59,586 bases of DNA from Chroococcales cyanobacterium (GCA_038260455.1 JBBSNU010000001.1:1-59586), one strand, 5' to 3'; numbered from the stretch's first letter, positions 27,824 through 50,345 are shown. Numbers and translations are program-made. The notes: generated by a model from the sequence alone, not told the origin.

Positions 27824-27853
27824 TGCATAAAAAACCCAGAATACTCCCGATAT
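27824..27853 (+). promoter_or_regulatory. Putative alternative-sigma promoter, copy 1
   Basis: TGCATAA-N17-CGATAT upstream of 27922. Confidence 0.65.
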
Positions 27854-27921
27854 TTCAATAGAGACAAGCGAAACCTTTCAAGCTTGTTGACACCGCACCT
27901 CTGTTGAATTAGGAGTCAGTT

Positions 27922-28810: not shown

Positions 28811-28839
28811 TGCATAATTTCTCTGTGCCGAGTCGATTA
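28811..28839 (+). promoter_or_regulatory. Putative alternative-sigma promoter, copy 3
   Basis: TGCATAA-N16-CGATTA upstream of 28866. Confidence 0.7.
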
Positions 28840-28865
28840 AATTTTGTACCGACTAACTGGGAGAA

Positions 28866-33100: not shown

Positions 33101-34288
33101 GGCGGCATTTGGTATGCAAAAATCTCTGAGTTTTTGCAAAAAATAGCCGAAAAATTGCAACTCACAACCTTAGTCGAAAAACATCTAACAAACATTGAGG
33201 AATTGATTATCATCCCGCACCTATTTTGGCATCAAATTCCCTTTGCAGCCTTACCTTTAACTCGCCCCACTCAGAACAATTCTCAGCCACCGGAAATTCA
33301 GCCATCAGGAATCATCCGCCAAGTCATCGAAATCTTTACCAGACTGGAGAAGAAAAACAACACCATAAATAATATCAGTACAATTCCCCCTGAAACAGAA
33401 ATAATGTCAACCCAATACTTAGGCGATAAATTCCGCCTGCGTTATGTTCCCAGTTGCCAGATTTTGCAATATTGCCAACAGCGTCCCCCCCTAGACAAAA
33501 TTAATTACGGCACTGTAGAAAATGCAGATGGTACACTTTCTGGTGCAGGGTTTGAAGGAGAAAAAATTGCCCAACTCTACAATATCCCCCAAAATCAGCG
33601 GTTAAGAGGTATCACCCAAGCCACCGTTAAAAATTATCGCCAATTAGCTAACCAAGTCCAAGTTTTGCACTCCAGCCATCACGCCTCATCACGCCTCGAC
33701 AGCCCCTTAGAATCGCGCCTAATTCTTGCCGATGGCAATATTACTTTAGGTCAAATCATGACCCCTGGGTTTCGACTTCCCAATCTCTCCGACGTGTTTC
33801 TTTCCTGTTGCGAAACCAATCTCAGTGTGGTTGGCATTAGCGATGATATTTTATCATTATCAACAGGGTTTCTCTGTGCGGGGGCGCGGAGTGTGGTGAG
33901 TACCTTGTGGTCAGTTGATGATTTAGCCACAGCTTTATTTTCCATTAGTTACTATCGGTATCGCCGCCAAGGTAAAAGCCGTTCCGAAGCCTTGCAAACA
34001 GCACAAAATAACTTGCGTAACTTGAAACTGGCAAAGGTAAAAGCTGATTTAGCATCGGATTTTCAGTTAATCAATGAAGCGCGGCAAGCTGCTAGGGATA
34101 AACTAAAAAAAGCGGATATAAATTCAGTAATTTATCAGCAATTACAAGATGATGTGATAAATTTCACCACTATTTCTGACGCAATTTATAACTTTCAGAC
34201 AAAAAGATTGCCGTCTTACGGTCAACAAGAATATCCTTTTGCCGATCCCTTTTATTGGGCTGGGTTCATCTGTTCCGGTTTGGCTTGA
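30110..34288 (+). CDS. TPR-repeat CHAT protease
   Basis: 12 tandem 46-aa TPR-like repeats; IIIPH, VLHSSHHA, VFLSCCET, GARSVVSTLWSVDD, PFYWAGF. Confidence 0.93.
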   Translation: MNEQRQQDYLNLIQALLDCPHGEEVNILNAHPHLVDEGLVQVMGQVAEIMTQQGNENIARFLTDGAQEIAAYLGNASSTAPPEEYILFLAEVVQATADSNGDAEVVYPILTANQDKLNDTLVTLYQKLSSTIFSKIVPEHSQSFAVVYGNFSKLIQQFSLGNIASNLEIAIIGYELVLSVFTRDKFPQEWAIVQNNFGTAYSNRLKGDKAKNLETAIHCYQKALLECTRDKFPQDWAMLQNSLGRIYEDRLEGDKAENLEIVIKCYQEALLECTHNKFPLDWVRTQISLGNAYLNRLKGDKAENLETAIACYQQILREEISTQFSEIWAIAQGVLGNAYSQRLKGDKAENLEKAIEYLQLALQVITKDNFPPDWAGTQYYLGNAYQIRLLGDEAENLEKAIACYELALQVCTKDNFPKNWAMTQNSLGIAYSNRFKGNKTENLETAIACYELALQVKAQDKFPQDWVNTQCNLGNAYQERILGDKAENLERARNCYELALLECKNDNFSQDWGTLQNELGNIYLYKITGDKAENLEKAISCYKLALQVRTKDNFPQDWAATQNNLGNVYRERVVGDKAENLEKAIACCQLALQVRTKDNFPKGWATNQHTLGNAYCERVLGDKAENWEKAIACYELALLERTQDNFPQDWAATQNNLGIAYQERILGNKAENLERAIACHTLALRERTQDKFPEDWAMTQNSLGNDYWKRLKGDKAENLEMAIACWRSALTINTPTTFPLHCLIAGNNLGNAAFTAGKWEIAIEGYKQAIDAVEESRTQALNDKRRQEIITEAVGVYSDIVQAYINLGQIDKAIEYADRSRSKRLVDLMASNDLYAGGEIPPQVQQYLQQHDTLQAQIDAERERLQAESDSSKQQTDKPTDKGSLALARATREAATQTIIELEAQKQQVWEQMRRLDPILAGEIKVTPLDFATIQKLIDSPKIAILNFFTTNNDTHIFIIYKNQSPQLHTCTGFGYQTLRELVIDEWLNPYLNKKNDGGIWYAKISEFLQKIAEKLQLTTLVEKHLTNIEELIIIPHLFWHQIPFAALPLTRPTQNNSQPPEIQPSGIIRQVIEIFTRLEKKNNTINNISTIPPETEIMSTQYLGDKFRLRYVPSCQILQYCQQRPPLDKINYGTVENADGTLSGAGFEGEKIAQLYNIPQNQRLRGITQATVKNYRQLANQVQVLHSSHHASSRLDSPLESRLILADGNITLGQIMTPGFRLPNLSDVFLSCCETNLSVVGISDDILSLSTGFLCAGARSVVSTLWSVDDLATALFSISYYRYRRQGKSRSEALQTAQNNLRNLKLAKVKADLASDFQLINEARQAARDKLKKADINSVIYQQLQDDVINFTTISDAIYNFQTKRLPSYGQQEYPFADPFYWAGFICSGLA
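30671..32326 (+). repeat. Coding tandem repeat, 12 x 138 bp
   Basis: Unit QDWAxTQNxLGNAYxxRxxGDKAENLExAIACYELALxxxTxDNFP; unit starts at 30671, 30809 and onward. Confidence 0.9.
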
Positions 34289-34369: not shown

Positions 34370-34398
34370 TGCATAACGATCGCCCTTACTGTCGATAT
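34370..34398 (+). promoter_or_regulatory. Putative alternative-sigma promoter, copy 4
   Basis: TGCATAA-N16-CGATAT upstream of 34429. Confidence 0.7.
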
Positions 34399-34428
34399 AG
34401 CAGTAGCACCGTAAGGAGAGCAACAGCC

Positions 34429-35464: not shown

Positions 35465-35493
35465 TGCATAACTTCTGACAATTCGCTCGATTA
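35465..35493 (+). promoter_or_regulatory. Putative alternative-sigma promoter, copy 5
   Basis: TGCATAA-N16-CGATTA upstream of 35534. Confidence 0.7.
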
Positions 35494-35533
35494 AAACTTA
35501 CAAGCAATCAAACTATTTACCGAGAATTTTATC

Positions 35534-36844: not shown

Positions 36845-36892
36845 TCAGTGATGCGGCTTAGGTGATGCGGCTTAGTCAGTGATGCGGCTTAG
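36831..36892 (+). repeat. Tandem repeat: 2 x 31 bp = 4 x GTGATGCGGCTTAG
   Basis: Copies at 36831, 36848, 36862 and 36879; the first contains the stop codon of the 35534 gene. Confidence 0.9.
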
Positions 36893-36973
36893 GGCGATCG
36901 AGAGTTGGTGAGGTGGGGGGTGCTTTCTAGGTGATAATGGAAGCATCCCCTTTTTTCTCTGATTGAAGCCCGT

Positions 36974-37690
36974 ATGGATGATGCGTCGTTGTGCCTATTG
37001 ATTCAAGAAGCCTTGCACGATCCTAACAGGGTTGAGGCACTAGCACTGGCGATCGACCAGTTGCCAGAAGTTAAGAGATATCTCGGCCCAGGTTGGCAAC
37101 CCTATTACGATCGAGCTTTGCCAACAACACAAAAAGATGTCCAGAGGAACATTAATAAATTTCCTCAAATGTATAAATTGAATATGGGAGATGTTAATCA
37201 CAAAAATACATCGAATTCTGCTCAGGTTCGGAAATACTTTATTAACTGGGTGGTGATGATTCTCGAAAAAGATTGCCATGATGTTAAGCGCAAAAAACGT
37301 CCAATTATTGTTAGCACGGACACTCCCATAGGAAAAGATGGCTTAACAATTGAAGAAACAATAGATAGCCGTCAAACTTGGAACCTAAACGATATCCCTA
37401 CCCTTGATGATTTAGATATTATAATAGCTGAAGAAGAGTTTGTAGAAAATCAAAAAAAGGTAGCGTTAATCCAGAGTTTGCTAGAAGAAAAATTATCAAA
37501 CTGCTATCCGGCTGGATGCCCCCAAGGAAATTGTTATGAATTAGTCCAAAGGAGGCTATTGAGAACACCACCGCAACAATGGCAAAATATTTCCAAAGAA
37601 TTACAAACCCCTTACGGAACTGTTACTGCTCACTGGAATAGAAAATGTAAACCGCTCCTAAGTCAAATCGAGCAAAATCTATCATTGTAA
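36974..37690 (+). CDS. Divergent sigma-70-like (HetZ-related) protein
   Basis: Region-2-like FINWVVMILEKDCHD, STDTPIG linker, C-terminal HTH WQNISKELQTPYGTVTAHWNRKCKPLL; directly upstream of DUF1822. Confidence 0.7.
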   Translation: MDDASLCLLIQEALHDPNRVEALALAIDQLPEVKRYLGPGWQPYYDRALPTTQKDVQRNINKFPQMYKLNMGDVNHKNTSNSAQVRKYFINWVVMILEKDCHDVKRKKRPIIVSTDTPIGKDGLTIEETIDSRQTWNLNDIPTLDDLDIIIAEEEFVENQKKVALIQSLLEEKLSNCYPAGCPQGNCYELVQRRLLRTPPQQWQNISKELQTPYGTVTAHWNRKCKPLLSQIEQNLSL

Positions 37691-37707
37691 TCAAAGGAGT
37701 TAAAACG

Positions 37708-38985
37708 ATGACAACTACAGCAAACATTTCTTTAAATATTCAGTTAACCAAGCAAGCGCATGGAGATGGTCGTACATTTGCATCTAAGCAATGCAGTCAA
37801 GAAAAAGCTAAACAAGTTTACCTGAATACGCTAGCAGTTTATGCTGTTAGTAATTTCCTGGAATGGCTGAATATAGAAACAGATTTAGCCGCCGGAGACA
37901 GTTGGAATTCGGTGATTAGACTATTCAATGATGTCGCAGATTTAGTTATTCCTAATTTGGGTAAACTGGAATGCCGTCCTGTTTTGCCAGGAGAAACTGT
38001 TATTACTTTACCTCCAGAAGTAACTGAGGACAGAATTTGCTATATTGCAGTTCAGTTTCAGGAACAATTGAACGAAGTGCAGCTATTGGGATTTATGCCT
38101 GCTTTAGATCCAGAAGAGCCTTTGTCACAAATTGAAATCGCCAATCTTCAACCCATAGAAAACTTAATTGACTACCTCGATCGCCTAGAATCAGCCCAAG
38201 ATTTTTTACACAGCGATGATGAAGTGGCTATCAAAGTAAGAAAAAGATTAAATACCGAGTCTTTCTCTGAAATTGTAGCTCAAATCGAACGAATTGTTCG
38301 GACTTGCAAACCATATAACTGGCGCTATGCTGGCGGGGATTTTTTAGCTAACTACGTTAATCCAGAACAGGGAATAGCTTTCAGAAGTGCTCCATCTCGT
38401 TCTGAGCGAGACGAATCTAATCGATCGCCAAACAGTGATTTACAAGATTTGGCTGAGAAATTGCTAGACAAGTTGAGTGAAATTTGGGGTATACAAAACG
38501 AAGAGGAAAATTCTGTTTGGATTGACTTGAGCGAATGGTTCCAAAATTCGGAAATTTTACTTAGGTATAATTTCCAAACTCTTGAATCTTTTTTGCTCGA
38601 ACAGGAAGAAAGTTTAGTATTTCGATTCGCGACTACACCCCGATCGCGCCAAGGAGCAACTGATGACAGTCTAGCAAATATTACGGGGGTGCAGCCAATA
38701 CAACTGCAAGAACACGCTTTAGCTTTGGCTGTGTGTTTGCAACTAGGAACAGACCATAAAACGGATGTACTTCTACGATTGTATCCTGCGGGAGAGAGTA
38801 CATATCTACCTAGTGGTTTGCAATTGATTGTCATAGATAGTGAATCTGGGGAGATGTTCTTGGAAGCTCAAGCGCGAAGTGCTGATAATTGGATTCAATT
38901 AGAGTTCCGAGGTGAACCCGGAGAACGCTTTAATGTTAAGGTAGCGCTTGGTGATTTGAGTGTTACGGATAATTTCGTGATTTAA
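37708..38985 (+). CDS. DUF1822 family protein
   Basis: KAKQVYLNTLAVYAV, GKLECRPV, YIAVQF; C-terminus ARSADNWIQLEFRGEPGERFNVKVALGD...FVI. Confidence 0.88.
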   Translation: MTTTANISLNIQLTKQAHGDGRTFASKQCSQEKAKQVYLNTLAVYAVSNFLEWLNIETDLAAGDSWNSVIRLFNDVADLVIPNLGKLECRPVLPGETVITLPPEVTEDRICYIAVQFQEQLNEVQLLGFMPALDPEEPLSQIEIANLQPIENLIDYLDRLESAQDFLHSDDEVAIKVRKRLNTESFSEIVAQIERIVRTCKPYNWRYAGGDFLANYVNPEQGIAFRSAPSRSERDESNRSPNSDLQDLAEKLLDKLSEIWGIQNEEENSVWIDLSEWFQNSEILLRYNFQTLESFLLEQEESLVFRFATTPRSRQGATDDSLANITGVQPIQLQEHALALAVCLQLGTDHKTDVLLRLYPAGESTYLPSGLQLIVIDSESGEMFLEAQARSADNWIQLEFRGEPGERFNVKVALGDLSVTDNFVI

Positions 38986-38995
38986 GTTGGGTTAA

Positions 38996-39202
38996 ATGAG
39001 ACGGCGGCTGGTGGCGGTTAATAGCCACCAGTTGCAGCAAATTGCCCAGTTATTGCGGTTTTTGGACGATCGCCCTGCGGTGGTGTTGACTGTGAAGTGC
39101 GATCGACAATTACGGGAAGTTCGCATTAATGTTGAGTGCTTCTCGATCGAAAAAATGTTTGAAATGTTAAAAAATGATAACAGGTGGGAGTTGTGGCTAT
39201 AA
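38996..39202 (+). CDS. Small hypothetical protein
   Basis: ATG 10 nt after the DUF1822 stop, same strand; no motif. Confidence 0.4.
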   Translation: MRRRLVAVNSHQLQQIAQLLRFLDDRPAVVLTVKCDRQLREVRINVECFSIEKMFEMLKNDNRWELWL

Positions 39203-39465
39203 AAATGTGAATGTTATGTTTTGCTACTCCTGTAGTTTTCAAATCAAGAAATGATTTTGCTAATATAGTAATTTTTAGGATATGTGGAGGGAAAAGAAGT
39301 TTGATGTCACTTCATAAATTAAGAAGTTTGCCAAGAAACCAGGTTTATCCTGTTTCATACAAGATTCAAAAAACCGATGTTCTTAATGTTTGAACAAAAG
39401 CAAACTTGCGAGTTCAGTGAATGTTTCACTAATTGCTTTTTTTATTGACGTGTTTGTAACTAAAT

Positions 39466-42399
39466 ATGCTTCAAAACTTCTCTGGTCAAAATCTTCAAAG
39501 GCGAAATTTTCAAGGTCAAAACCTCACGGGTGCGAACTTCTCTCACGCAGATCTTCGAGAGGCTAATTTTACAAGGGCTATTCTTCAAGAATCTAGTTTT
39601 AGTAATGCTGATATACGAGGGACAAACTTTACAAATGCCGATCTCACCAAATCAAAATTTAATGAAGCAATAGCTGGAATGAAGCTTTCATCGATTATTT
39701 TTCTGATGTTGGCAATAATAGTATCAATCACTGGTATGGGATTTGCTTTTGGGATTGGTGCATTTCTAATGGGAGGAATTTTAAACACGAATAATGTTCA
39801 GCAGTATTTACTACCTATAAAAGTTTTTGTATCTTTAGCTGCTATTATAGGAAGTTACATAATCCATCGAGGAGATCGGTTGGCGCAGGAAACAAACTGG
39901 GATATTAATAATGAAAGAAAATTAGCATTAAAAACTTCCCAATTTTTTATTGGTTTAGGAATTATTTTAGTTATTATATCAATTATTCTAAATATCAACA
40001 AACAGTTTGATTTCTTTGGAATTCTTATCATTGCTACTACTTTAGTTTATGGTTTTAGCTTTGTATTGGCTTTAGCTGTAGCAGGTGCATTAGCAATAGC
40101 CGGTCGCTTAGGAATTTTTGGAGTATTTGCAGGCACAATGTCTCTGTTAGGCGCTATATCAGTAATTTTGGTTGATAATAAGTTTTTGAATTTTGATGGT
40201 GCTAGATGTTTGTTGCTTACTTTGTCTTTAATAATTAGTTTATTCGGAACATTTCTTGGTTACAAATGTATAAATAATGCCAAACATCTAGAAAAATTTA
40301 AAATTATTATAATAGATTTGGTTGCTTTAGGTGGGACAAGTTTTCGTGGTTCTAACTTAACAGAAGCTGATTTTACTATGGCAACTCTTAGCAATACCGA
40401 TTTCCGAAGAGCAAATTTAACACGAACCTGTTGGTATTCAGCTAAGAAAATTGATGTCGCTAGGATTGACAGAACTATACTAGAGTCATCATCAGCGAGG
40501 AATTTACTGATTAATCCTGAAAAAGGAAACAATAAATCTTACATGGACGCTAATTTGCGGGGAGCATATTTAGTGGAAGCAAATTTATCAAATGCCAATC
40601 TAAGCGGAGCAGATATCAGTGATTCAAATTTTTCGGGAGCAAATTTAGAAGGGGCGAATTTGAGTTTAATTCAAGCAGTTAATGCTAACTTTAATCGAGT
40701 TCAAATGACAGGAGCTTGTTTGGAAGCGTGGAATATTGATAGTAGTACGAAACTGGAGAATGTCGATTGTCGATTTATTTATCTTTTAGAAAATCCAAAG
40801 CCTGGAAGCGATGGCCGCGAACGTCGTCCCAGCAGCGGCGAGTTTGCACCCGGAGAATTTACAAAACTCTTCCAAGAAGTTCTAACTACTGTTGATTTAA
40901 TCTTTCGCAACGGTGTTGACTGGAAAACTTTTAGCGAAACCTTCAAAAAAGTGCAGGTTGAGAATGAAGATACTGAACTAACTATCCAGAGTATTGAAAA
41001 TAAAGGCGATGGCGTTGTTGTTGTCAGAGTAAGCGTTCCTCCCAATACCAACAAAGAAAAGATTCATAGCGAATTTACCCAAAACTACGAACTTGCTCTG
41101 AAAGCTATAGAGGAAAAATATCAAGGAATCATCGCAGGTAAAGAAGGACAGATTGAAATCTATCGCCAGCAGTTGGGGTATGAACGCCAGAGACACAAGG
41201 AACAAAACGCAGATCTGAAAGAGATTATTAGTATGCTGTCTAGCAAACCTGCGAATGTTCCCGTTAATATTCGTGAAGTAGAAGCAATTTCCGAAGATAA
41301 ATTAAGAAATAATAACTTAGTTATACTTACGCTAGAAAATGGCGATTTTAAAAAAGGTTTTTCATCTGTCATAGCTCAAGTTTGGACTGAGGGTGAAAGA
41401 CTACCAACTCAACATACAGGTCAGTTGCCACCAGAACCAGAGATAGTTGAACTTTATCATCATTGGCAGTCAGAATATAACCGTTTCATTGCACATCTTA
41501 AACCAAGCCGGATGGATAAACAGCTAGGACAAGTAACCAATTTTGCTACTGTAGAAATGTCTAATTTAGCGAAAAAATTAGAAAAAAAACTGAATCAATG
41601 GCTTATATCAGAACAATTTATTCCGATCGATCGCATATTGCGCCAAAATTTCAACCCAGGTGACGAACTCCAAATCATCATTCAATCTCAAAACCCAGAT
41701 GTGCGAAAACTCCCCTGGCATCTGTGGGAATTTTTTAACTCATACCCCTACGCAGAAATAGCCTTAAGTGCGCCTTTTTATGACCGAGTAGAAAAAATAG
41801 CACGTCCGAGAAATGAAATTAGAATCTTATCGATATTGGGTGATAACAAAAACATAAATACCAATCCAGATAGAAAAATCATCTCAACTCTCGTTCCCAA
41901 AGCAAATTTTTTAGATAAACCAAATCGCCAACAGTTAGATACTCAATTGTGGTCAGAACAAGGTTGGGATATCCTGTGTTTCTCCGGTCACAGTTCCAGC
42001 ACAATGGATGGCAGCGAGGGTTATATTTGTATCAACGATACGGATAAACTAACAATTCCTGACCTCAAATATGCTCTCCGAACAGCGATCGCACGCGGTT
42101 TGCAAATCGCCATTTTCAACTCTTGCGACGGTTTAGGCCTAGCGCGTCAACTGGCCGAATTGCACATCCCACAAATAATCGTTTTCCGAGAACCCGTTCC
42201 CGATCGCGTCGCACAGGAATTCTTGAAAAACTTCCTCACCGCCTTCGCTGGTGGGAAATCCTCTTATCTGGCAGTACGAGAAGCAAGAGAAAAACTATAC
42301 CACCTAGAAAAAGACTTTCCCTGCGCCACTTGGCTACCAGTCATCTGTCAAAACCCCGCCGAAGTGCCGCCCACATGGCGATCGCTCCAGCATCCCTAA
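39466..42399 (+). CDS. Pentapeptide-repeat membrane protein fused to C-terminal CHAT protease
   Basis: A(D/N)Lxx repeats, about 6 TM helices, GACLEAWNID...RRPSSGEFAPGEF block, coiled coil, WDILCFSGHS and IFNSCDGLG. Confidence 0.9.
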   Translation: MLQNFSGQNLQRRNFQGQNLTGANFSHADLREANFTRAILQESSFSNADIRGTNFTNADLTKSKFNEAIAGMKLSSIIFLMLAIIVSITGMGFAFGIGAFLMGGILNTNNVQQYLLPIKVFVSLAAIIGSYIIHRGDRLAQETNWDINNERKLALKTSQFFIGLGIILVIISIILNINKQFDFFGILIIATTLVYGFSFVLALAVAGALAIAGRLGIFGVFAGTMSLLGAISVILVDNKFLNFDGARCLLLTLSLIISLFGTFLGYKCINNAKHLEKFKIIIIDLVALGGTSFRGSNLTEADFTMATLSNTDFRRANLTRTCWYSAKKIDVARIDRTILESSSARNLLINPEKGNNKSYMDANLRGAYLVEANLSNANLSGADISDSNFSGANLEGANLSLIQAVNANFNRVQMTGACLEAWNIDSSTKLENVDCRFIYLLENPKPGSDGRERRPSSGEFAPGEFTKLFQEVLTTVDLIFRNGVDWKTFSETFKKVQVENEDTELTIQSIENKGDGVVVVRVSVPPNTNKEKIHSEFTQNYELALKAIEEKYQGIIAGKEGQIEIYRQQLGYERQRHKEQNADLKEIISMLSSKPANVPVNIREVEAISEDKLRNNNLVILTLENGDFKKGFSSVIAQVWTEGERLPTQHTGQLPPEPEIVELYHHWQSEYNRFIAHLKPSRMDKQLGQVTNFATVEMSNLAKKLEKKLNQWLISEQFIPIDRILRQNFNPGDELQIIIQSQNPDVRKLPWHLWEFFNSYPYAEIALSAPFYDRVEKIARPRNEIRILSILGDNKNINTNPDRKIISTLVPKANFLDKPNRQQLDTQLWSEQGWDILCFSGHSSSTMDGSEGYICINDTDKLTIPDLKYALRTAIARGLQIAIFNSCDGLGLARQLAELHIPQIIVFREPVPDRVAQEFLKNFLTAFAGGKSSYLAVREAREKLYHLEKDFPCATWLPVICQNPAEVPPTWRSLQHP

Positions 42400-42430
42400 C
42401 TCCCCACACCTGACATCTTGCACCAATATC

Positions 42431-42496
42431 AGAAACCGGGTTTCTGGGAAAGACTCTGCAACAAAGCCCTTATTTATCGTCAGAGACCCGGTTTCT
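42431..42496. repeat. AGAAACCGGG-type intergenic inverted-repeat element
   Basis: AGAAACCGGGTTTCT ... AGAGACCCGGTTTCT. Confidence 0.8.
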
Positions 42497-42551
42497 TGAT
42501 ACTTCTTGAGAATGCTGCAAGATGTCAGCCCGCACGACTTTCCCAGAAAAC

Positions 42552-42580
42552 TGCATAAAATTCCCAAGCCGCCACGAGAA
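42552..42580 (+). promoter_or_regulatory. Putative alternative-sigma promoter, copy 6
   Basis: TGCATAA-N16-CGAGAA upstream of 42620. Confidence 0.6.
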
Positions 42581-42619
42581 AGATATAGCAAACAACAACA
42601 CCCCCTCAACGAGGTTCTC

Positions 42620-43168
42620 ATGGCCGCCACTCTCAACCAAATTGCTCAGTATCTCGACAACCGCGACTGGAAATACGACTCTCAACCCGAAAACTCCCGC
42701 ATCATCACCGGAGTTAAAGCCGAGTCCGTTGACCGATTGGCGATCGCAATTAGCCTCAAAGAAAACGGCGAATACCTAGAATTAGCCGCCCCCAACCTCC
42801 TCCACGTCAAAAGCCACGTCTACAAAGGCGTACTCTTTCAAACCATGCTCGCTATTTCCTGGGAAACAAAAATGATTCGCTGGGAATATGACCCCCTAGA
42901 CGGCGAAATTCGCGCTTCCATCGCCTTTCCCCTCGAAGACGCACCCCTTACCAAACCACAATTCGATCGCGCTTTGAGCGGCTTAATTCACATTGTTGAC
43001 TCCCTATCTATGCCGCGACTCCAAGCAGTGCTCGCCACCGGCATCGATCCAGGAGAAAAAGAATTAGGCGAAAAATTGCTGGAGACTTTGCAGGAAATTC
43101 TGCCCGACGGTTCCCTGAAAATGTTGCAAGATGCGATCGTCGCCCGCAAACAGCGAGGCACTATTTAA
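42620..43168 (+). CDS. YbjN / type III secretion chaperone-like protein (paralog 2)
   Basis: LKENGEYLEL, KMIRWEYDPLDGEIRASIAFPLED; start MAATL with GAGG RBS. Confidence 0.75.
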   Translation: MAATLNQIAQYLDNRDWKYDSQPENSRIITGVKAESVDRLAIAISLKENGEYLELAAPNLLHVKSHVYKGVLFQTMLAISWETKMIRWEYDPLDGEIRASIAFPLEDAPLTKPQFDRALSGLIHIVDSLSMPRLQAVLATGIDPGEKELGEKLLETLQEILPDGSLKMLQDAIVARKQRGTI

Positions 43169-43172
43169 ATGT

Positions 43173-43201
43173 TGCATAAATCGTTGCACCTGTAGCGATT
43201 A
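43173..43201 (+). promoter_or_regulatory. Putative alternative-sigma promoter, copy 7 (in front of a sigma-like gene)
   Basis: TGCATAA-N16-CGATTA upstream of 43238. Confidence 0.7.
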
Positions 43202-43237
43202 CAAATTATCAACCGTTTACTTGGGAGTTACCTCCAC

Positions 43238-44842
43238 ATGAGCATATCGAAATTTTGCAGGTTCTTTCGCGGCCCTAATTGGGTGACAGACAAACGATTA
43301 GAAGAAAATTTAGACTACTTACAGAAGCAAGGCCGCGATCTGAATGATGAAATCGGCTTGCTGCGATATTTCTGTGAAGCTGTCCTGCTGCATTCAGACT
43401 CCTTAGCATTGCGACATTTATCGGCTTATTTGGAATCAGCTTGTGTATCTGCGGCTTGGAAACTCCACCAAAAAGATAACACACAAGAGTACACTTTGTT
43501 GGACTTTGTACAAATAGCCAGACTTCGCTTGTCAGAACCCACACTGATTAAAAATCAACAGGGCGTTGAACGAGAAGTTCCTTATTTTGTCAGTTTGTGT
43601 TTGAAGTATGACCCCGCTCAAGGTAAAATCACGACTTACGCCTATTTGAAACTTCGTTCTGCGATTGTATCAAAGGTGTACAAAAATCAGCAAACCCAAC
43701 GATTATCCGGTTGGGCTTTGTTGAAAAAAACTGGAAAATCAACTCTCACAACCGCCTTAAAACAAGGTGGAACTCCTGATGCCAAAATTAAACGTTGCTT
43801 AAATTGCTTGCAAGCATTTCATGCAGTTTACGGTAAATTCACCGTTGGTAAAAATTGTATATTGACTGAACCAACCGAAGCACAATGGATGGCAATCTGT
43901 CAATATTTATATGAACAAAATTTAGCGGTGAATCTTCCCGAAGTGAAGAATCTGTTAAACACCTGCGTTGAGGTATTGCGAGCTCGTGATAAAATCCAAA
44001 TCACCGCCTTGGATGGCGTGGATGAGACAGCGCAGGAAAGGCAACAATTAGAAATTGTTGAACAGTGGGAAACTCAACTGTTAGACTCGGAAGAAAAACA
44101 GGAGTTATTGACACAGGATGAAGAATTGATGGATTGTGTAGGAAGGGCGATCGCGACAATTCCTAAAAAGAAACCTCAAAAAGGTAAACTATCGATCGAT
44201 CCGCGCCAAGTCCTAATTTTATCTTACGCTTTACCCGGATTAACCGAGACTAAAATCGCTGCTTTGTTTGCGGTAAATCAATCAACCATTTCTCGTTATT
44301 TACACGGATACAAAACCTCGATTCTCAAAAGTTTGGCTGGCTGGCTTCATAGTGAACGAGGTTGGGAATTAACGACACAAAAAATTGATACTCTGTCTGA
44401 ACAATTAGAATTTTGGTTAAAATCCTATTGCAGAAGTCGGGTTGTCTACTGTTTTTTGCGGCAAGGTTTGAAATATCATCCTGAGTTGAGAAACAATCTG
44501 AACTTATTGTCAAATCATTTTGGCAATTTACCCGAAAAAACTTGGGCTAAAGCCAACAGTTTAGAACGGTATTTCAAGCCATCAGAATTAAGTGAGCAAT
44601 TGTCTTACTTAAATCAAGCGGCGCGTCCACAGTGCACAGAAATGCCAGATCAAGCTAAGTTGGAAGCCGCCAAAGCTAAGTTACATCAACAATTAACAAT
44701 TTGGCTGCAACAAACTTTGGGTTTAAAGGACTGTGATTTAAGTGCGATCGCTCGCCCTTCGAGTTTATTGATTGACTGTTTTCTGTATCAAGCTGACTAC
44801 GCCCTTTTACAACAAGAACGGAGATCAAACCATGCTATCTAG
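43238..44842 (+). CDS. Large divergent sigma-70-like (HetZ-related) protein
   Basis: HLSAYLESAC, region-2-like KYDPAQGKITTYAY, SGWALLK, region-4 HTH LTETKIAALFAVNQSTISRY; overlaps the DUF1822 start. Confidence 0.75.
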   Translation: MSISKFCRFFRGPNWVTDKRLEENLDYLQKQGRDLNDEIGLLRYFCEAVLLHSDSLALRHLSAYLESACVSAAWKLHQKDNTQEYTLLDFVQIARLRLSEPTLIKNQQGVEREVPYFVSLCLKYDPAQGKITTYAYLKLRSAIVSKVYKNQQTQRLSGWALLKKTGKSTLTTALKQGGTPDAKIKRCLNCLQAFHAVYGKFTVGKNCILTEPTEAQWMAICQYLYEQNLAVNLPEVKNLLNTCVEVLRARDKIQITALDGVDETAQERQQLEIVEQWETQLLDSEEKQELLTQDEELMDCVGRAIATIPKKKPQKGKLSIDPRQVLILSYALPGLTETKIAALFAVNQSTISRYLHGYKTSILKSLAGWLHSERGWELTTQKIDTLSEQLEFWLKSYCRSRVVYCFLRQGLKYHPELRNNLNLLSNHFGNLPEKTWAKANSLERYFKPSELSEQLSYLNQAARPQCTEMPDQAKLEAAKAKLHQQLTIWLQQTLGLKDCDLSAIARPSSLLIDCFLYQADYALLQQERRSNHAI

Positions 44843-46031
44843 CTTAGAACAATTACGACTCGCTTTTCCAAATCATTTATGGGTTGAGTTGACATCGGAA
44901 GAGTTGCGTAAATCTTTGCCATCTGCTGAAAAATTTTCCCACGAAGCAGCGGTTTATCGTGCTTATTTGAATCAGCTTTGTATCGATTATTTATTACCAT
45001 TATTTCCTGAAATTGCCAATGTGGAAGCATCACCGAAGATTGCCGCCCCATCCCAGAGGAATAGTTTGTGGGAATTGATTAATGGAACTGCGATCGAATT
45101 TTGCGGTCATCGTTTGATTATTATTCCCAGTGAAAGCATTGATGTGGATGAATTTGTCATTGAACAAGAATGGGTAGATATTCCCGAATTAGCCGGGGAT
45201 TATTATTTGGCGGTGCAGGTAAATTTAGAGGATGGATGGTTGCGAGTGTGCGGTTTTACCACCCATCGGAAGCTGAAAACAGAGGGGAGATATGATACGG
45301 GCGATCGCACTTATGCTCTAGATTCAGAGGAATTATTTGAAAATATCAATACTCTGTGGGTTTCCCAGGAACTTTGTAAGGCCGAAAAAGCAGAGATTCC
45401 ACCGTTACCAAGTTTATCTAGCAGCCAAGTAGAAAGGTTAATGGCAGAATTAGCTAAACCTTCACTTTATTCCCCGCGTTTGAAAGTGCCTTTTCCCCAG
45501 TGGGCGGCGCTTGTAGCTGCTGATAATTGGCGGCAGCAACTTTATAATCGCCGTATTGGCAAAGAATCGGTGGTGGAAAAATTGGTAAATTTGAGTCAGA
45601 ATATTTTTTCAGAATTGTGGTTGATGGCGAATGAATTGGTGCTAAGCTATGGGATTAATCTGGCTGTAGCGAGGAGTGGATCTCGTTCTGGAGACGCTGA
45701 GGGCGATCGACCTTTTCAAATGCGGGGAAGAATGATTGATTTGGGAATTCAATTATTTGGTAAACCTGTAGCATTAATTGTCTATTTCACACCAGAATCG
45801 GAGAATAAATGGAATATCCTTTTGCAGATTAAACCCGGTGGGGGGCAAACGTACTTGCCGCCAGATGTGGAACTGATTGTGTTGGATGATACTGGTGAGG
45901 TGTTTCTGGAAGCGCGATCTAGAAGTGCGGATAATTGGATTCAGTTGGAGTTTCGGGGTGAGCCTAGGGAACGGTTCAGTGTTAAAGTGGCTTTAGGTGA
46001 TGCCAATATTATTGAAAATTTCGTTATCTAA
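44832..46031 (+). CDS. DUF1822 family protein
   Basis: RAYLNQLC, QEWVDIPELAGDYYLAVQV, SPRL; C-terminus SRSADNWIQLEFRGEPRERFSVKVALGD...FVI. Start MLSS with GGAG RBS. Confidence 0.88.
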   Translation: MLSSLEQLRLAFPNHLWVELTSEELRKSLPSAEKFSHEAAVYRAYLNQLCIDYLLPLFPEIANVEASPKIAAPSQRNSLWELINGTAIEFCGHRLIIIPSESIDVDEFVIEQEWVDIPELAGDYYLAVQVNLEDGWLRVCGFTTHRKLKTEGRYDTGDRTYALDSEELFENINTLWVSQELCKAEKAEIPPLPSLSSSQVERLMAELAKPSLYSPRLKVPFPQWAALVAADNWRQQLYNRRIGKESVVEKLVNLSQNIFSELWLMANELVLSYGINLAVARSGSRSGDAEGDRPFQMRGRMIDLGIQLFGKPVALIVYFTPESENKWNILLQIKPGGGQTYLPPDVELIVLDDTGEVFLEARSRSADNWIQLEFRGEPRERFSVKVALGDANIIENFVI

Positions 46032-46052
46032 GCAAAGGAAAAATAGCAAGCT

Positions 46053-49001
46053 ATGGGTAAGTTAGTTGTCCTGATTGTTGGAGAAGGAAATTTTCAGCAA
46101 GGTTTTCCAGTCACGTTAGAAATTGGAGAAGAGGGCGATCGCCCTTTTCTTAAAATCACTGGATATCTGCCGCAAAATATAAGCATTGCTAACTTATATA
46201 GTAGTTGGCAGTCAAAGTATCATAGCCATATCAATAACGGACTAAGATTAGAAAAACCCAAAGAGCAAAAGTCTAATAGCTCAAATGATGAAATCAAAGA
46301 AAAAGCTAATGATTTGAGTGCAAATTTAAATTTTTGGCTGGGAACGCAGCAGTTTAGCCAGATTCGAGAAGAGTTGCTAACCAATCTTAAACCAGATGAC
46401 GAAATACGGTTTATCATTCAAACATCAAACATTCAGCTACGGCAACTACCCTGGCATATTTGGGATTTATTTAAGGACTATCCCTTGGCAGAAGTTGCCT
46501 TGAGTGTAGCAAATTACGGTCAAGTATCCTCACCTAAAACTTCCACAAATAAAGTCAGAATTTTAGCTGTTTTGGGTAATAGCAATGGGATTAATATTCA
46601 AAAAGACCGAGCTTTGCTAGACAAATTACCCAGTGCCGAAACTAAATTCTTATCTGAACCAAAGCAGCAAGAAATCACTGACCATCTGTTGAAGCATTCC
46701 TGGGATATTTTATTCTTTGCCGGTCACAGTCAAACAGAAGGAGAAAAGGGACGAATATTTATTAACAACAATAACGACAGCTTAACCATTAGCCAGTTAA
46801 AAAATGCACTAACAAAAGCGATTAGAAAAGGTCTAAAACTAGCTATTTTTAACTCTTGTGATGGATTGGGTTTAGCACAGGAACTAGCTGATTTGCAAAT
46901 TCCTCAAATCATTGTCATGCGAGAGCCTGTTCCTGACCCAGTAGCTCAGGAATTTTTAAAATATTTTCTAGCGGCTTTTGCAGATGGTAAATCTCTATAT
47001 CTATCAGTCAAAGAAGCACGAGAAAATTTACAAAAATTAGAACAAAATTGGCCTGGTATTTCTTGGTTGCCGATTATTTGCCAAAATCCGAGTCAATTAA
47101 TGCCAAATTGGGATAAGTTACGCACTGCTTCAAGTACGAGAACTCGTTCAACAATCTGGAATACAAAACGCTCTCCTCAAAAATTAGGCAATCGAAATGA
47201 CTTACTAGAAAAAGTAAAAAACGAAGTGGAAAATCGTTGGAAACAGTCACTGTACAATCAAGTAGTTATTCAATTACCAAAGGAACAGCAGCCCAAACAA
47301 GTACAACGACCTTGGGATGTAGAGGTCAAACTCAGTCATCTACCGAATCAAGTATTGGCTCCAGGAAAAGAATTAATAGATGTTTTAAAGCAGGGTAATA
47401 TCGCTGGAAAGTTATTAATTATAGGCGATCCAGGAAGCGGTAAAACGACAACTCTCTTAGAACTAGCAAAGCAGCTAATTACCCAGGCTGAAAACGATAC
47501 AGATGAGCCAATTCCTATTTTGTTAAACCTCTCATCCTGGAAAGATGAAAACCAATCTTTTACTAAATGGCTGATTGCTGAACTTGTCTCGAAATATCAT
47601 GTCAGTATAAATATTGCTCAATCGTGGTTAGAAAATCGGCAGATTTTGCCACTTCTTGACGGTTTAGACGAATTAGAAACAATCCCCCAAGAACGCTGTG
47701 TAGAGCAGATTAATCAATTGCTAGAAAGTCCCTATCGCCCCCGTGGTTTGGTTGTATGCAGTCGCGAGAAAGGATACGAATTTATTAACACCAAGCTCAA
47801 ACTGAACGGGGCAATCTGTTTGCAACCGGTAGCTAAGGCAGAAATTCAAAAATATTTCACAGATGTCAGAGGTCAAAACTTATGGGAAACAATTAAAGAA
47901 TATGACGCTTTCTTGAAAATATTAGAGTCTCCACTAATGTTGAATCTTATGGCGTTAGTAGGTCAGGAAATAGCGCTTGAAGATGATGTACAATTTAAGT
48001 CCACTAAAGAACTAGAAGATAGTTTGTTGAATGCTTACATTCAGCAAATGCTAAAACGGGAGATTACAAATGTATCCTATTCTCATCAAACAGAGCCATC
48101 CGCTAAAAAAACTCAGGACTGGTTAACATGGCTAGCTAACAAATATCAAGACGACTCTCAGACAGAGTTTTCAGGATTTTCGCTGGAGCAAATGCAGCCA
48201 TCTTGGTTGCCGAATCGTTATAAACAGATTTATGCTTTGGGAGTCGGACTAAATTTTGGTTTAAGTTTGGCGCTGATTGTTGGTAGCATTGTCTGGTTAA
48301 CTGTTGGCATACTTTTTGAGCCATTTTGGGGAATGGTTCTGGTTTTGGCGATCGCGCTTTTTGTAATTATACCCTCCAGCCTGTGGGCTTTTTTAACAGT
48401 TGGACAAGCTGAAAAAATAGAACCTGTAGAAACCCTAATTTTTTCACCCAAAAAGTTATTCAAGTCTTTAGTTGGAGGTCTGATAGCTGGACTAATTACT
48501 TGGAAATTGTCAGGAATGATGGTTTTCTCGATAGTTGGAATCCTCGTTGGATTGATTTATGGAGTGAGTGGTTCTAATCTTGAAAAAATAAAAATTCCCA
48601 ACCAAGGCATTTGGCAATCAGTCAAAAATGCAAGTTTATTTGCACTGATAGGCGCAATCAGTATGGCTATACCCGCTGCTATTCTGAGCCCACAGCTTCT
48701 GGCAATGATAGTCGAATCATCGGTTCTACAAAATAGAATTGGGACTACAAATATTGTTTTATCTGCCATTATTGTTGGCGGAGCTTTTGGATTAACTCAA
48801 GCAGGGATGGCTGGCATTCAACACTTCACCTTGCGCTTAATTCTTTGGTACAAGGGATATATGCCTTGGAACTATGCTCGTTTTCTCAACTATGCCACCG
48901 AACGAAGATTTTTGCAGCGAGTTGGCGGACGTTATCAATTCATTCATAAGTTATTACAAGTTCATTTGGCTACATGGGAACCTGATTTAGGGAAAAAGTA
49001 A
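46053..49001 (+). CDS. CHAT protease + NACHT NTPase + C-terminal TM helices
   Basis: FAGHS and NSCDG; Walker A GDPGSGKT, Walker B LLDGLDE; about 6 TM; NYARFLNYATERRFLQRVGGRYQFIH tail. Confidence 0.92.
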   Translation: MGKLVVLIVGEGNFQQGFPVTLEIGEEGDRPFLKITGYLPQNISIANLYSSWQSKYHSHINNGLRLEKPKEQKSNSSNDEIKEKANDLSANLNFWLGTQQFSQIREELLTNLKPDDEIRFIIQTSNIQLRQLPWHIWDLFKDYPLAEVALSVANYGQVSSPKTSTNKVRILAVLGNSNGINIQKDRALLDKLPSAETKFLSEPKQQEITDHLLKHSWDILFFAGHSQTEGEKGRIFINNNNDSLTISQLKNALTKAIRKGLKLAIFNSCDGLGLAQELADLQIPQIIVMREPVPDPVAQEFLKYFLAAFADGKSLYLSVKEARENLQKLEQNWPGISWLPIICQNPSQLMPNWDKLRTASSTRTRSTIWNTKRSPQKLGNRNDLLEKVKNEVENRWKQSLYNQVVIQLPKEQQPKQVQRPWDVEVKLSHLPNQVLAPGKELIDVLKQGNIAGKLLIIGDPGSGKTTTLLELAKQLITQAENDTDEPIPILLNLSSWKDENQSFTKWLIAELVSKYHVSINIAQSWLENRQILPLLDGLDELETIPQERCVEQINQLLESPYRPRGLVVCSREKGYEFINTKLKLNGAICLQPVAKAEIQKYFTDVRGQNLWETIKEYDAFLKILESPLMLNLMALVGQEIALEDDVQFKSTKELEDSLLNAYIQQMLKREITNVSYSHQTEPSAKKTQDWLTWLANKYQDDSQTEFSGFSLEQMQPSWLPNRYKQIYALGVGLNFGLSLALIVGSIVWLTVGILFEPFWGMVLVLAIALFVIIPSSLWAFLTVGQAEKIEPVETLIFSPKKLFKSLVGGLIAGLITWKLSGMMVFSIVGILVGLIYGVSGSNLEKIKIPNQGIWQSVKNASLFALIGAISMAIPAAILSPQLLAMIVESSVLQNRIGTTNIVLSAIIVGGAFGLTQAGMAGIQHFTLRLILWYKGYMPWNYARFLNYATERRFLQRVGGRYQFIHKLLQVHLATWEPDLGKK

Positions 49002-49558: not shown

Positions 49559-49587
49559 TGCATAAAACCACAAACCCTTCACGACTA
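49559..49587 (+). promoter_or_regulatory. Putative alternative-sigma promoter, copy 8
   Basis: TGCATAA-N16-CGACTA upstream of 49616. Confidence 0.7.
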
Positions 49588-49615
49588 AACAATAGCCAAC
49601 AATCAAGAGGTAATT

Positions 49616-50158: not shown

Positions 50159-50168
50159 AAGGGCGATC

Positions 50169-50270
50169 GGGCAACCACAGGGGGTTTGCCCCTACCAGCG
50201 ATCAAAGAAACCGGGTTTTTACCGAATCTGTCGGCTACAACCAAATATTTTCGTAAAAAACCCGGTTTCT
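50169..50270. repeat. Composite intergenic repeats (GGGCAACCACAGGGGGTTTGCCCCTAC + AGAAACCGGG element)
   Basis: Hairpin 50169-50195; AGAAACCGGGTTTTTAC...GTAAAAAACCCGGTTTCT 50206-50270. Confidence 0.8.
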
Positions 50271-50345
50271 GGGCCCCCATCACCTGCCGACAAGGCATAC
50301 AAAACCTTGCCCTTTACCTGCCAACAATTATTTCAATTAACAACC

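What the first reader, a model, noticed from the sequence alone, without database searches (positions are those of the whole stretch)
36974..49001. Two sigma-like / DUF1822 / CHAT triads: a putative protease-gated sigma-antisigma switch
Seen: the order sigma-like -> DUF1822 -> CHAT fusion occurs twice (36974/37708/39466 and 43238/44832/46053) with different sensors (pentapeptide-TM vs NACHT-TM). The DUF1822 C-termini are near-identical (RSADNWIQLEFRGEPxERFxVKVALGD) and are preceded by Arg-containing flexible linkers (FRFATTPRSRQG; LAVARSGSRSG). Established: the CHAT protease Csx29 cleaves Csx30 to release a sigma factor in type III-E CRISPR loci, and HetF (CHAT) cleaves PatU3, encoded next to hetZ. 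Inference: DUF1822 is an anti-sigma cleaved in that linker by the sensor-activated CHAT, releasing sigma to the TGCATAA-N16-CGA promoters. This would be a CRISPR-independent, NLR-like caspase-to-transcription pathway.
Basis: partly seen in the sequence, partly recalled or inferred. Interest (0 to 1): 0.88.

Follow-up and report, generated by a model that had tools for sequence, protein, structure and literature searches.

The report
Caspase-gated sigma switches in cyanobacterial island
Two gene trios in a cyanobacterial island each pair a divergent sigma-like transcription factor with a partner predicted to hold it inactive and a caspase-like protease that would cut the partner to switch on a shared, likely promoter; the gene set was catalogued by computer in 2021 and works like a proven developmental switch, but no test of it was found in the papers searched.

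Summary
Both trios exist, both CHAT domains keep His/Cys, and the motif TGCATAA-N16-CGA is real: 6 of 10 genome-wide copies lie in this contig, each with a transcription-start signature 20-34 nt before a gene. The trio is the ECF-sigma/DUF1822/EACC2-caspase neighbourhood described in silico by Kaur et al. 2021. A CRISPR-independent CHAT→inhibitor→sigma path is already supported in cyanobacteria (HetF-PatU3-σHetZ), so the idea is not new. This scan noted the same module on other DNA at least 8 times.

Added here:
- Sigma A co-folds with the DUF1822 N-domain (0.81 vs 0.01 control).
- DUF1822 models as a restriction-nuclease-like fold plus Arg linker plus β-sandwich, not TPR.
- The linker's R-[S/G] is enriched (82/147 vs 37.5 shuffled).
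- The C-module is a portable tag, also fused directly to sigma factors.

Corrections:
- Only the C-terminal ~95 aa are alike (57%).
- Trio 1's pentapeptide-CHAT neighbour is probably secondary, since deletion scars of the usual partner lie between.
- Which sigma reads the motif is unresolved.

Cleavage, RNAP binding and the trigger are untested. Verdict: new member of a known, untested kind, with sharp testable predictions.

The parts
35465..35500 (+). Promoter-like motif TGCATAA-N16-CGA with TA at predicted -1/+1; precedes 35534 and possibly the sigma A operon
36974..37690 (+). Sigma A: divergent ECF-like factor, 238 aa, with sigma-2-like (1-108) and sigma-4-like (150-238) domains
   Evidence: AF2 model pLDDT 83; 44 of the top 44 VIA rows are mostly sigma or HTH proteins, e.g. 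SigC region 2 Z 6.8, CnrH region 4 Z 7.8 rmsd 1.6 over 67; Foldseek best E 2.9e-3
37708..38985 (+). DUF1822-A, 425 aa: N-domain (aa 9-165, PD-(D/E)xK-like fold, predicted sigma binder), helical middle domain (168-262), W-helix plus Arg linker (270-320), beta-sandwich (321-425)
38371..38424 (+). Disordered loop 1 of DUF1822-A (aa 222-239) with conserved F-R226-[G/S]; candidate cut site after R226 (38383-38385)
   Evidence: pLDDT <50; R in 60 of 72 rows with a residue, G/S next in 65 of 72
38608..38667 (+). Linker 2 of DUF1822-A (FRFATTPRSRQG); candidate cut site after R312 (38641-38643)
   Evidence: R312 68/86, S313 71/86; family-wide R[S/G] enrichment
39005..39251 (+). Deletion scars: tail of a trypsin-PDZ-like gene (39005-39130) and weak zinc-ribbon tail of the soluble EACC2-CHAT gene (39192-39251)
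   Evidence: tblastn 70% over 43 aa, E 4e-11; 57% over 21 aa, E 0.05; blastn 71-75% to the 3' ends of that gene in 6 loci
39466..42399 (+). Pentapeptide repeats - about 7 TM - pentapeptide repeats - unassigned alpha/beta domain - EACC2-type module plus CHAT at the C-terminus (41311-42387; H842, C887)
42552..42587 (+). Promoter-like motif before the YbjN-like gene
42620..43168 (+). YbjN-like protein; 54% identical to 28077, which has a sub-threshold YbjN hit
43173..43208 (+). Promoter-like motif 30 nt before the sigma B start (likely autoregulation or cascade input)
43238..44842 (+). Sigma B: 534-aa sigma-70-family factor with insertions
   Evidence: TIGR02937 E 1.2e-6, below cut-off; its profile hits FliA sigma-2 and sigma-4, E 1.1e-5; relatives pass the TIGR02937 cut-off
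44832..46031 (+). DUF1822-B, 399 aa: distinct N-domain type, Arg linker LAVARSGSRSG (candidate cuts after R281 at 45672 or R285 at 45684), beta-sandwich
46053..49001 (+). EACC2-type module plus CHAT (46053-47123; H225, C269) - NACHT (47415-47861, Walker A GDPGSGKT, Walker B LLDGLDE) - about 5 TM
49559..49594 (+). Promoter-like motif before the 49616 gene and the JAB/E1-like gene
28811..28846 (+). Promoter-like motif before the NYN-nuclease gene
34370..34405 (+). Promoter-like motif before 34429
27824..27860 (+). N17 variant of the motif upstream of 28077
481..1731 (+). Soluble EACC2-CHAT-zinc-ribbon protein, 52% identical to the gene that follows DUF1822-A in relatives; candidate protease for trio 1
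30110..34288 (+). TPR-CHAT protein; homologues follow short DUF1822 proteins that have only N and middle domains; candidate second protease for DUF1822-A

Best explanation
Each DUF1822 is likely a cleavable anti-sigma adaptor: its N-domain is predicted to clamp the neighbouring sigma-like factor, its C-terminal beta-sandwich would dock on the EACC2-caspase (CHAT) module, and the protease, once its sensor is triggered, would cut the Arg-Ser/Gly linker between them so that the sigma is freed, probably after further degradation, to transcribe from the likely promoter TGCATAA-N16-CGA. Shown from sequence and tools: gene order, intact dyads, sigma-2/sigma-4 folds, conserved linker Arg, motif enrichment and start signature, type-matched sigma/N-domain pairing. 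Predicted by model: sigma A - DUF1822-A binding, covering sigma-2 helix 88-106, the linker and sigma-4. Inferred only: docking of the C-module on EACC2, cleavage at R226/R312 (A) and R281/R285 (B), activation by NACHT or membrane sensors, RNAP binding, and a defence or stress role. Trio 2 is a canonical member. Trio 1 probably uses the soluble EACC2-CHAT (481) or another of the island's proteases rather than, or as well as, the adjacent pentapeptide-TM protein. Sigma B is the likelier reader of the motif (about 55%; both about 25%; sigma A alone about 20%).
For: (a) Co-fold sigma A + DUF1822-A(1-165): ipSAE 0.81 vs best control 0.01. The mark was reached by 116 of 157 solved and 2 of 215 mismatched pairs; these counts hold only roughly because my own alignments were used. 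Runs agree in at least 75% of contacts, partner pLDDT at least 88. No solved DUF1822 relative was found by sequence. (b) Type-matched pairing: 32 of 37 sigma-A-type genes are followed by an A-type N-domain and none by a B-type. Sigma-B-type genes are followed by B-type proteins that the A profile does not hit. The C-module is shared by both. (c) Rosetta stones: sigma fused directly through an Arg linker to the C-module without the N-domain (L036, L095, P0205, P0264, P0273). The C-module is also fused to TRADD-N, HTH and PIN domains, which links Kaur's two neighbourhood types. (d) The C-module sits before EACC2-CHAT genes: next ORF in 21, second ORF in 3, of 32 C-module ORFs with downstream room (my count; loci related, not independent). 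Short DUF1822s lacking the module are followed by TPR-CHAT-like genes (L051, L052, L103, L120, L126). (e) Linker R[S/G] in 82 of 147 scorable representatives clustered at 50% identity (152 examined) vs shuffle mean 37.5, maximum 53; P1' is S 65, G 17. HetF cuts PatU3 at R117/S118 (PMC9457339). (f) Promoter: YR at predicted -1/+1 in 7 of 7 window sites, with 20-34-nt leaders for the six N16 sites; 30 of 32 distinct sites across loci vs 28 of 92 off-island controls. Geometry T-35..A-30, A-10 matches the σHetZ promoter TCCGGA-N16-17-TGNA-N7-9-T (PMC13342950). The motif lies within 450 nt upstream of 13 of 15 long-clade sigma B genes and 0 of 31 other sigma-B-family genes. (g) Precedents: HetF/PatU3/σHetZ, Csx29/Csx30/CASP-σ, CalpL/CalpT/CalpS.
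Against: No experiment exists. Docking and cleavage were not modelled. Sigma evidence is individually weak (Z about 7-8 is within background for helical models; no Foldseek E below 1e-3). 65 of 147 linkers lacked R[S/G] in the fixed window; some have HEAT inserts that shift the site. The window's sigma B recognition helix (NQSTISR) differs from the KQYxISR of most motif-bearing relatives. DUF1822-A keeps D78/E88/R90 at nuclease active-site positions. Eight of 32 C-module ORFs have no EACC2 gene among the next two ORFs. PADLOC gave no hit for any of the six trio proteins.
Confidence: 0.62

Rival explanations
1. Kaur-type autopeptidase model: the EACC2-caspase cuts itself or other targets on sensing, and DUF1822 is an uncleaved scaffold or chaperone of the sigma.
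For: Proposed in PMC8195603 section 9. DdvA is suggested to autoproteolyse (PMC11506125). The co-fold shows binding, not cleavage.
Against: Conserved R[S/G] in low-confidence linkers, and the same linker retained in sigma-C-module fusions, point to DUF1822 as substrate.
Confidence: 0.15
2. DUF1822-A is a caged PD-(D/E)xK nuclease effector: cleavage unleashes it, and sigma A binding is the cage or a second output (toxin-antitoxin-like).
For: The N-domain matches Hje/Hjc (Z 8.0, rmsd 2.8-2.9 over 101-104 aa) and I-Ssp6803I (Z 7.6). D78 57/65, E88 59/65 and R90 55/65 are conserved. They are not among the listed interface residues. The C-module also carries PIN domains.
Against: Lys is replaced by Arg. 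The B-type N-domain lacks these acids in the weak profile alignment (prob 7.6). Z 8 is borderline. CalpT shows that a nuclease-like fold can serve as a non-toxic anti-sigma.
Confidence: 0.1
3. The proteases signal to something other than these sigmas (pore formation by the TM parts, or cleavage of other island proteins), and the motif is read by a different or chromosomal sigma, so the trios are co-located but not one switch.
For: The motif with YR is found in 65 of 151 genomes, including ones without sigma B. The gene after DUF1822 is swapped freely between relatives. Trio 1's adjacency arises from a deletion.
Against: Tight sigma-DUF1822-EACC2 packing across families; motif concentrated in the island; some outside hits are chance matches inside coding regions (L107-L109).
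Confidence: 0.13

Closest known systems
EACC2-caspase neighbourhoods with ECF sigma and DUF1822 (Kaur, Iyer, Burroughs, Aravind 2021, eLife, PMC8195603)
   Same: Constant alpha/beta + caspase module with variable partners (STAND NTPase, multi-TM, repeats), plus ECF sigma and DUF1822 genes; predicted to end in transcription.
   Different: The paper calls DUF1822 a TPR protein and proposes autopeptidase activation. Here it models as nuclease-like fold + linker + beta-sandwich and is proposed as the substrate. The 39466 protein has the module at its C-terminus. The passages read give no promoter or cut site.
HetF - PatU3 - σHetZ (Anabaena PCC 7120; PMC9457339, PMC13342950)
   Same: Cyanobacterial CHAT protease cutting after Arg (R/S), an inhibitor encoded next to an atypical ECF sigma with insertions, CRISPR-independent; same promoter geometry.
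   Different: The CHATs score 18-27 bits on the HetF model (cut-off 1200), while a much closer HetF match lies elsewhere in this genome (618 bits on a 571-aa ORF). Different -35/-10 sequence. Sensor fusions and a patchy island rather than core development. Homology of DUF1822 to PatU and of sigma B to HetZ was not shown.
Type III-E Craspase Csx29 / Csx30 / CASP-σ (PMC10028731)
   Same: A CHAT protease cleaves an anti-sigma whose N-domain binds an ECF sigma; the sigma's sites lie inside its own locus.
   Different: No Cas7-11 or CRISPR array in the window; the trigger is not RNA; EACC2-type rather than TPR-CHAT in the trios.
CalpL / CalpT / CalpS (bioRxiv 10.1101/2024.05.08.593097)
   Same: Anti-sigma built from a nuclease-like N-domain that holds sigma plus a small C-domain that binds the protease, cut between them; release needs a second degradation step.
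   Different: Lon-SAVED protease, cA4 trigger, MazF-like domain, Ala-Ala cut; here caspase-type, Arg cut, restriction-nuclease-like fold.
DdvA / DdvS of Myxococcus xanthus (PMC11506125)
   Same: CHAT-containing control of an ECF sigma that drives a defence island through several in-island promoters.
   Different: Anti-sigma and CHAT are one transmembrane protein with a periplasmic CHAT; here they are separate and the anti-sigma has no TM segment.

Membership tests
EACC2-caspase / ECF sigma / DUF1822 neighbourhood (Kaur 2021) | Constant N-terminal alpha/beta domain + caspase, followed by a variable C-terminal part (trio 2, 46053) | tested here: met
   A 357-aa module at residues 1-357, shared at 39-50% identity with four other window proteins; CHAT 119-331, then NACHT and TM
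EACC2-caspase / ECF sigma / DUF1822 neighbourhood (Kaur 2021) | Same module at the N-terminus (trio 1, 39466) | tested here: not met
   The module is at residues 616-974, after pentapeptide and TM parts; a variant architecture
EACC2-caspase / ECF sigma / DUF1822 neighbourhood (Kaur 2021) | Sequence match to the published EACC2 domain | not tested
   No Pfam hit for the segment and the paper's source data were not read; the name is assigned by position
EACC2-caspase / ECF sigma / DUF1822 neighbourhood (Kaur 2021) | Adjacent DUF1822 and ECF-like sigma genes | tested here: met
Clan CD / CHAT peptidase | His-Cys dyad | tested here: met
   FSGH...FNSC and FAGH...FNSC
Sigma-70 family, ECF-like | [quoted passage not shown] | tested here: met
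   Sigma A model matches isolated region 2 and region 4 structures; sigma B profile matches both regions of FliA; both proteins are below curated HMM cut-offs
Sigma-70 family, ECF-like | Binds core RNA polymerase and directs initiation | not testable with these tools
   Needs biochemistry
Anti-sigma factor | Binds the cognate sigma | tested here: inconclusive
   The model supports but does not show binding for pair A (0.81 vs 0.01); pair B was not modelled
HetF-PatU3-σHetZ | HetF orthologue | tested here: not met
   18.2 and 26.6 bits vs cut-off 1200
HetF-PatU3-σHetZ | DIF1 promoter TCCGGA-N16-17-TGNA | tested here: not met
   The motif here is TGCATA-N16-NCGA; same spacing, different sequence
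HetF-PatU3-σHetZ | Homology of sigma to HetZ and of DUF1822 to PatU | tested here: inconclusive
   No HetZ/PatU-named hit in NCBIfam or PDB sequence searches; no direct comparison with those sequences was made
Type III-E CRISPR Craspase | Cas7-11 and CRISPR array; Csx29 | tested here: not met
   No Cas family among 40 window ORFs; no 23-mer occurring 3 or more times; 30110 scores 54 bits vs Csx29 cut-off 300
CalpL-CalpT-CalpS | Lon-SAVED protease | tested here: not met
   No Lon or SAVED hit among 40 ORFs
PD-(D/E)xK nuclease (DUF1822-A N-domain) | Fold and catalytic D...(D/E)xK | tested here: inconclusive
   Fold Z 8.0 (borderline); D78...E88-C-R90, with Arg for Lys

The most novel reading that the evidence does not exclude
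The DUF1822 C-module (W-helix, FxFR/S linker, beta-sandwich) is a portable 'caspase address tag' that puts any attached nucleic-acid-acting payload (pseudo-nuclease anti-sigma, sigma itself, HTH, PIN, TRADD-N proteins) under EACC2-caspase control. The island is then a multi-input immune circuit: four catalytically intact EACC2-caspases with exchangeable NLR-like or membrane sensors, plus a TPR-CHAT, converge on one private promoter, and DUF1822-A integrates two protease classes through its two Arg loops. That would be a bacterial NLR-caspase-transcription pathway with a modular substrate code.
Probability: 0.35. Interest if true: 0.75.

Novelty: new member of a known kind. Interest (0 to 1): 0.5.

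Why it matters
The module is widespread: sigma-A-type hits in 90 of 151 and sigma-B-type hits in 54 of 151 genomes of the order. No experimental study turned up in the library searches. If the reading holds, the HetF-PatU3-σHetZ logic that controls heterocyst development is one case of a general cyanobacterial caspase-to-sigma signalling kit, here wired to NACHT and membrane sensors in a variable island. That would give DUF1822 a function and supply a non-CRISPR, sensor-programmable protease-to-transcription switch. Named cut sites, interface residues, start sites and target genes make it testable in a few experiments.

Tried and rejected
- ESM Atlas gave no answer.
- TRADD-N identity for 39466 aa 466-560: no Pfam hit; my profile gave no hit and hhalign prob 0.2. 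Left unassigned.
- Sigma A vs sigma B profile comparison: only the HTH aligns, prob 20. Treated as two separate types.
- An enriched TAGGT-N14-TTATGCA upstream of common 400-aa sigma-B relatives looked like the motif on the opposite strand. I set it aside because it appears to overlap start codons and only 4 of 23 such loci had an opposite-strand site with YR.
- A motif copy conserved across the genus lies inside a coding region (L107-L109): chance.
- The sigma-70 consensus scan gave no excess (30 vs 32.8).
- RNA runs: two runs of one study held 0.07 of the words. Laid contigs of related strains cover short pieces (e.g. 36944-37356, 49617-49843), but contigs cannot show starts, strand or level, and DNA carry-over is possible. 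No evidence either way.
- PADLOC: no hit for the trio proteins.
- PDB sequence search with the DUF1822-A profile: nothing below E 0.7.
- Foldseek of whole DUF1822-A gave only generic beta-sandwich matches.
- Literature: 'DUF1822' 2 papers; 'EACC2' 36 hits, 20 listed, only Kaur relevant among those listed; some searches found precedents but no test of DUF1822. The library lacks most subscription papers.


Full report
Observation. Pfam gives DUF1822 for 37708 and 44832, CHAT for 39466 and 46053, pentapeptide repeats for the first and NACHT for the second. Hydropathy suggests 7 and 5 TM segments, and both CHATs keep His and Cys. The quoted C-terminal stretch is 25/27 identical, but the C-domains are 57% identical over 95 aa and the N-halves do not align. 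The motif is real: 7 hits vs 0.73 expected, and 6 of the 10 exact N16 copies in the 5.1-Mb, 75%-complete assembly are in this contig. The named closest homologues are Microcoleaceae proteins, so the host is probably such a filamentous cyanobacterium.

Setting. The window is one large island. Its gene order recurs in several genomes of the genus, while sigma-B hits occur in only 16 of 79 genus genomes. It holds kinases, vWA and MoxR proteins, double-GTPase-like proteins, an NYN nuclease, a JAB/E1-like fusion, a TPR-CHAT and five copies of a 360-aa protease module at 39-50% identity. Four of these keep the dyad; 56696 has Ser in place of Cys. In relatives the domains fused to this module change from locus to locus: NACHT, NB-ARC, nSTAND1, periplasmic binding protein, trypsin, HEAT.

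The sigma-like proteins. The AF2 model of the 238-aa protein (pLDDT 83) matches isolated sigma-2 structures with its N-half and sigma-4 structures with its C-half (Z 6.8-7.8). Foldseek's list is almost all sigma factors, but none is below E 1e-3. The 534-aa protein hits TIGR02937 below cut-off; its profile hits both regions of FliA, and relatives pass the cut-off. The two proteins are different types. RNAP binding is untested.

DUF1822 anatomy. The model of DUF1822-A (pLDDT 84) has an alpha/beta N-domain matching Holliday-junction resolvases Hje/Hjc (Z 8.0, borderline), a helical middle domain with a disordered loop (222-239), a short helix plus linker, and a beta-sandwich. It is not a TPR protein. 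N-domain types track sigma types: 32 of 37 sigma-A-type genes are followed by an A-type N-domain, none by a B-type, and the A profile misses all 38 B-type N-domains. The C-module is shared. Co-folding sigma A with residues 1-165 gave 0.81 against 0.01 for the best of three controls; this mark was reached by 116 of 157 solved and 2 of 215 mismatched pairs, roughly applicable here, with runs agreeing in at least 75% of contacts and partner pLDDT at least 88. The interface spans the sigma-2 helix, the linker and sigma-4, with DUF1822 helix 67-74 against L195/L229. That this would block the RNAP flap-tip pocket is my inference from general sigma structure. Sigma domains have many solved anti-sigma complexes, so some memory effect cannot be excluded, although no DUF1822 relative is solved.

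Substrate evidence. Among 150 representatives at 50% clustering plus the two window proteins, 147 could be scored. 82 have R[S/G] in the 25 residues before the sandwich, against a shuffle mean of 37.5 and maximum 53; the consensus is about [LP]-A-F-x-F-R/[SG]. An independently anchored count gave 69 of 116 vs 35.4. HetF cuts PatU3 between R117 and S118 (PMC9457339 passages). In DUF1822-A both R312-S313 and the unnoticed R226-[G/S] are conserved. Short DUF1822s with only N and middle domains keep an Arg in that loop (14 of 14 regex-selected, related sequences) and are followed by TPR-CHAT-like genes. C-module proteins are followed by EACC2-CHAT genes as next ORF in 21 and second ORF in 3 of 32 cases (my count; two ORFs at locus ends dropped; loci are kin). 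The C-module also occurs alone (L035) and fused to sigma factors without an N-domain (L036, L095, P0205, P0264, P0273), and to TRADD-N, HTH and PIN domains. Of the 152 sequences, 60 had no recognised N-domain, many of them fragments. This fits an address-plus-cut-site tag. Docking and cleavage themselves were not modelled.

Correction to trio 1. In relatives the three-domain DUF1822-A is usually followed within 15-30 nt by an EACC2-CHAT gene, mostly a soluble 400-aa form ending in a zinc ribbon. The 480-nt gap here contains the tail of a trypsin-PDZ-like gene and weak traces of that CHAT gene's end. A 52%-identical copy sits at 481-1731. The pentapeptide-TM-CHAT protein, whose module is C-terminal, is thus probably a secondary neighbour. 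Trio 2 is canonical.

The promoter. All seven window sites have a pyrimidine-purine pair at the same distance after CGA, and the six N16 sites predict 20-34-nt leaders. Across loci 30 of 32 distinct, partly orthologous sites show this, against 28 of 92 off-island controls. The geometry equals that of σHetZ promoters (PMC13342950 section 8 and passages). The motif lies just upstream of 13 of 15 long-clade sigma B genes and 0 of 31 other family members, and occurs four times in L013, which shows sigma B only. Against exclusivity: it is upstream of only 1 of 12 sigma A genes and near 4 of 37 others, plus one CCA variant. Yet two single-contig genomes without a sigma B hit carry it in sigma-A-type loci, and this window's sigma B recognition helix is atypical. 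Predicted targets are the NYN nuclease, two YbjN-like genes, 34429, 35534 (possibly through to sigma A), the sigma B operon and the 49616/JAB-E1 unit.

Mechanism. Sensor (NACHT or membrane part) activates EACC2-caspase; the caspase binds the beta-sandwich and cuts after Arg; the N-fragment is probably degraded further, as shown for CalpT (preprint passages) and suggested for Csx30 (PMC10028731 passages); sigma is released and transcribes the island, including its own operon. Confidence 0.62. Rivals: autoproteolysis with an uncut scaffold (0.15), unrelated outputs (0.13), caged nuclease (0.10). A defence role is inferred from context only; PADLOC does not recognise the trio.

What is known. Kaur et al. 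2021 (section 9 read in full) describe EACC2-caspase proteins with variable C-termini next to an ECF sigma and DUF1822, and propose a transcriptional output. HetF-PatU3-σHetZ gives a cyanobacterial, CRISPR-independent precedent: cleavage shown, sigma function shown, PatU3 inhibition shown and described as a likely anti-sigma. The trio is not HetF, Craspase or Calp by membership tests, but works like them. PMC11506125, PMC9679502 and PMC10907252 were seen as passages only. No supplements were read; Kaur's source data and the σHetZ homologue tree may already list these families. Earlier notes of this scan report the same module on other DNA at least eight times; they are not independent evidence.

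Verdict. A real, well-formed new member (trio 2) and a rearranged variant (trio 1) of a catalogued family for which no experimental test was found. The specific predictions (fold of DUF1822, binding surface, two cut loops, portable tag, start sites) are the value. Interest 0.5.

Noticed in passing
window 56696-58693: Fifth EACC2-CHAT module has Ser in place of the catalytic Cys (IFQSSDG): likely a pseudo-protease, at the end of the iSTAND/MoxR/vWA unit.
   Followed up: partly
window 52385-56684: CHAT-iSTAND, MoxR-like AAA and vWA genes: looks like an iSTAND-type ternary conflict system, conserved in relatives.
   Followed up: no
window 49616-52241: 180-aa protein with an E2-like H...C motif (label recalled, no library hit) followed by a JAB plus ThiF/E1 fusion with PADLOC E1-E2 hits; preceded by the motif and highly conserved in relatives.
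   Followed up: no
window 2032-23953 (- strand): Long divergent operon: TraG/VirD4-like ATPase, three double-GTPase-like proteins, vWA proteins, VanY-like peptidase, FHA, PP2C and two Ser/Thr kinases; same order in G035, G058 and G033.
   Followed up: no
L036:14999-16126 and L095:1279-2406: Natural fusion of a sigma-A-type factor to the DUF1822 C-module through an Arg-rich linker, with the motif directly upstream.
   Followed up: yes
L034:9870-10589, L036:2610-3329, L041, L045, L083: An extra sigma-A-type gene inserted in reverse orientation, without its own DUF1822, between two EACC2-CHAT genes.
   Followed up: no
L038:1026-2300, L041:1789-3060, L043:16875-18146: The sigma A slot is filled by a 423-aa protein with only partial sigma-A likeness and no library hit, still followed by an A-type DUF1822.
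   Followed up: partly
P0203, P0236, P0239, P0249, P0255: C-module fused to an N-terminal 'PGEIW' domain that recalls MazF/PemK-like folds (recalled; no Pfam hit in the four scanned), which would parallel CalpT.
   Followed up: partly
L093:3875, L094:14699: Motif variant TGCATAA-N16-GGA upstream of a sister sigma B clade with a different recognition helix (EQYEVSR).
   Followed up: partly
L103 (G000:C411) and L104 (G000:C26): Two more sigma/DUF1822 loci in the same genome: a short DUF1822 before a TPR protein homologous to 30110, and a full one before an EACC2-CHAT.
   Followed up: partly
window 36830-36891: Short tandem repeats (GTGATGCGGCTTAG units) between 35534 and sigma A.
   Followed up: no
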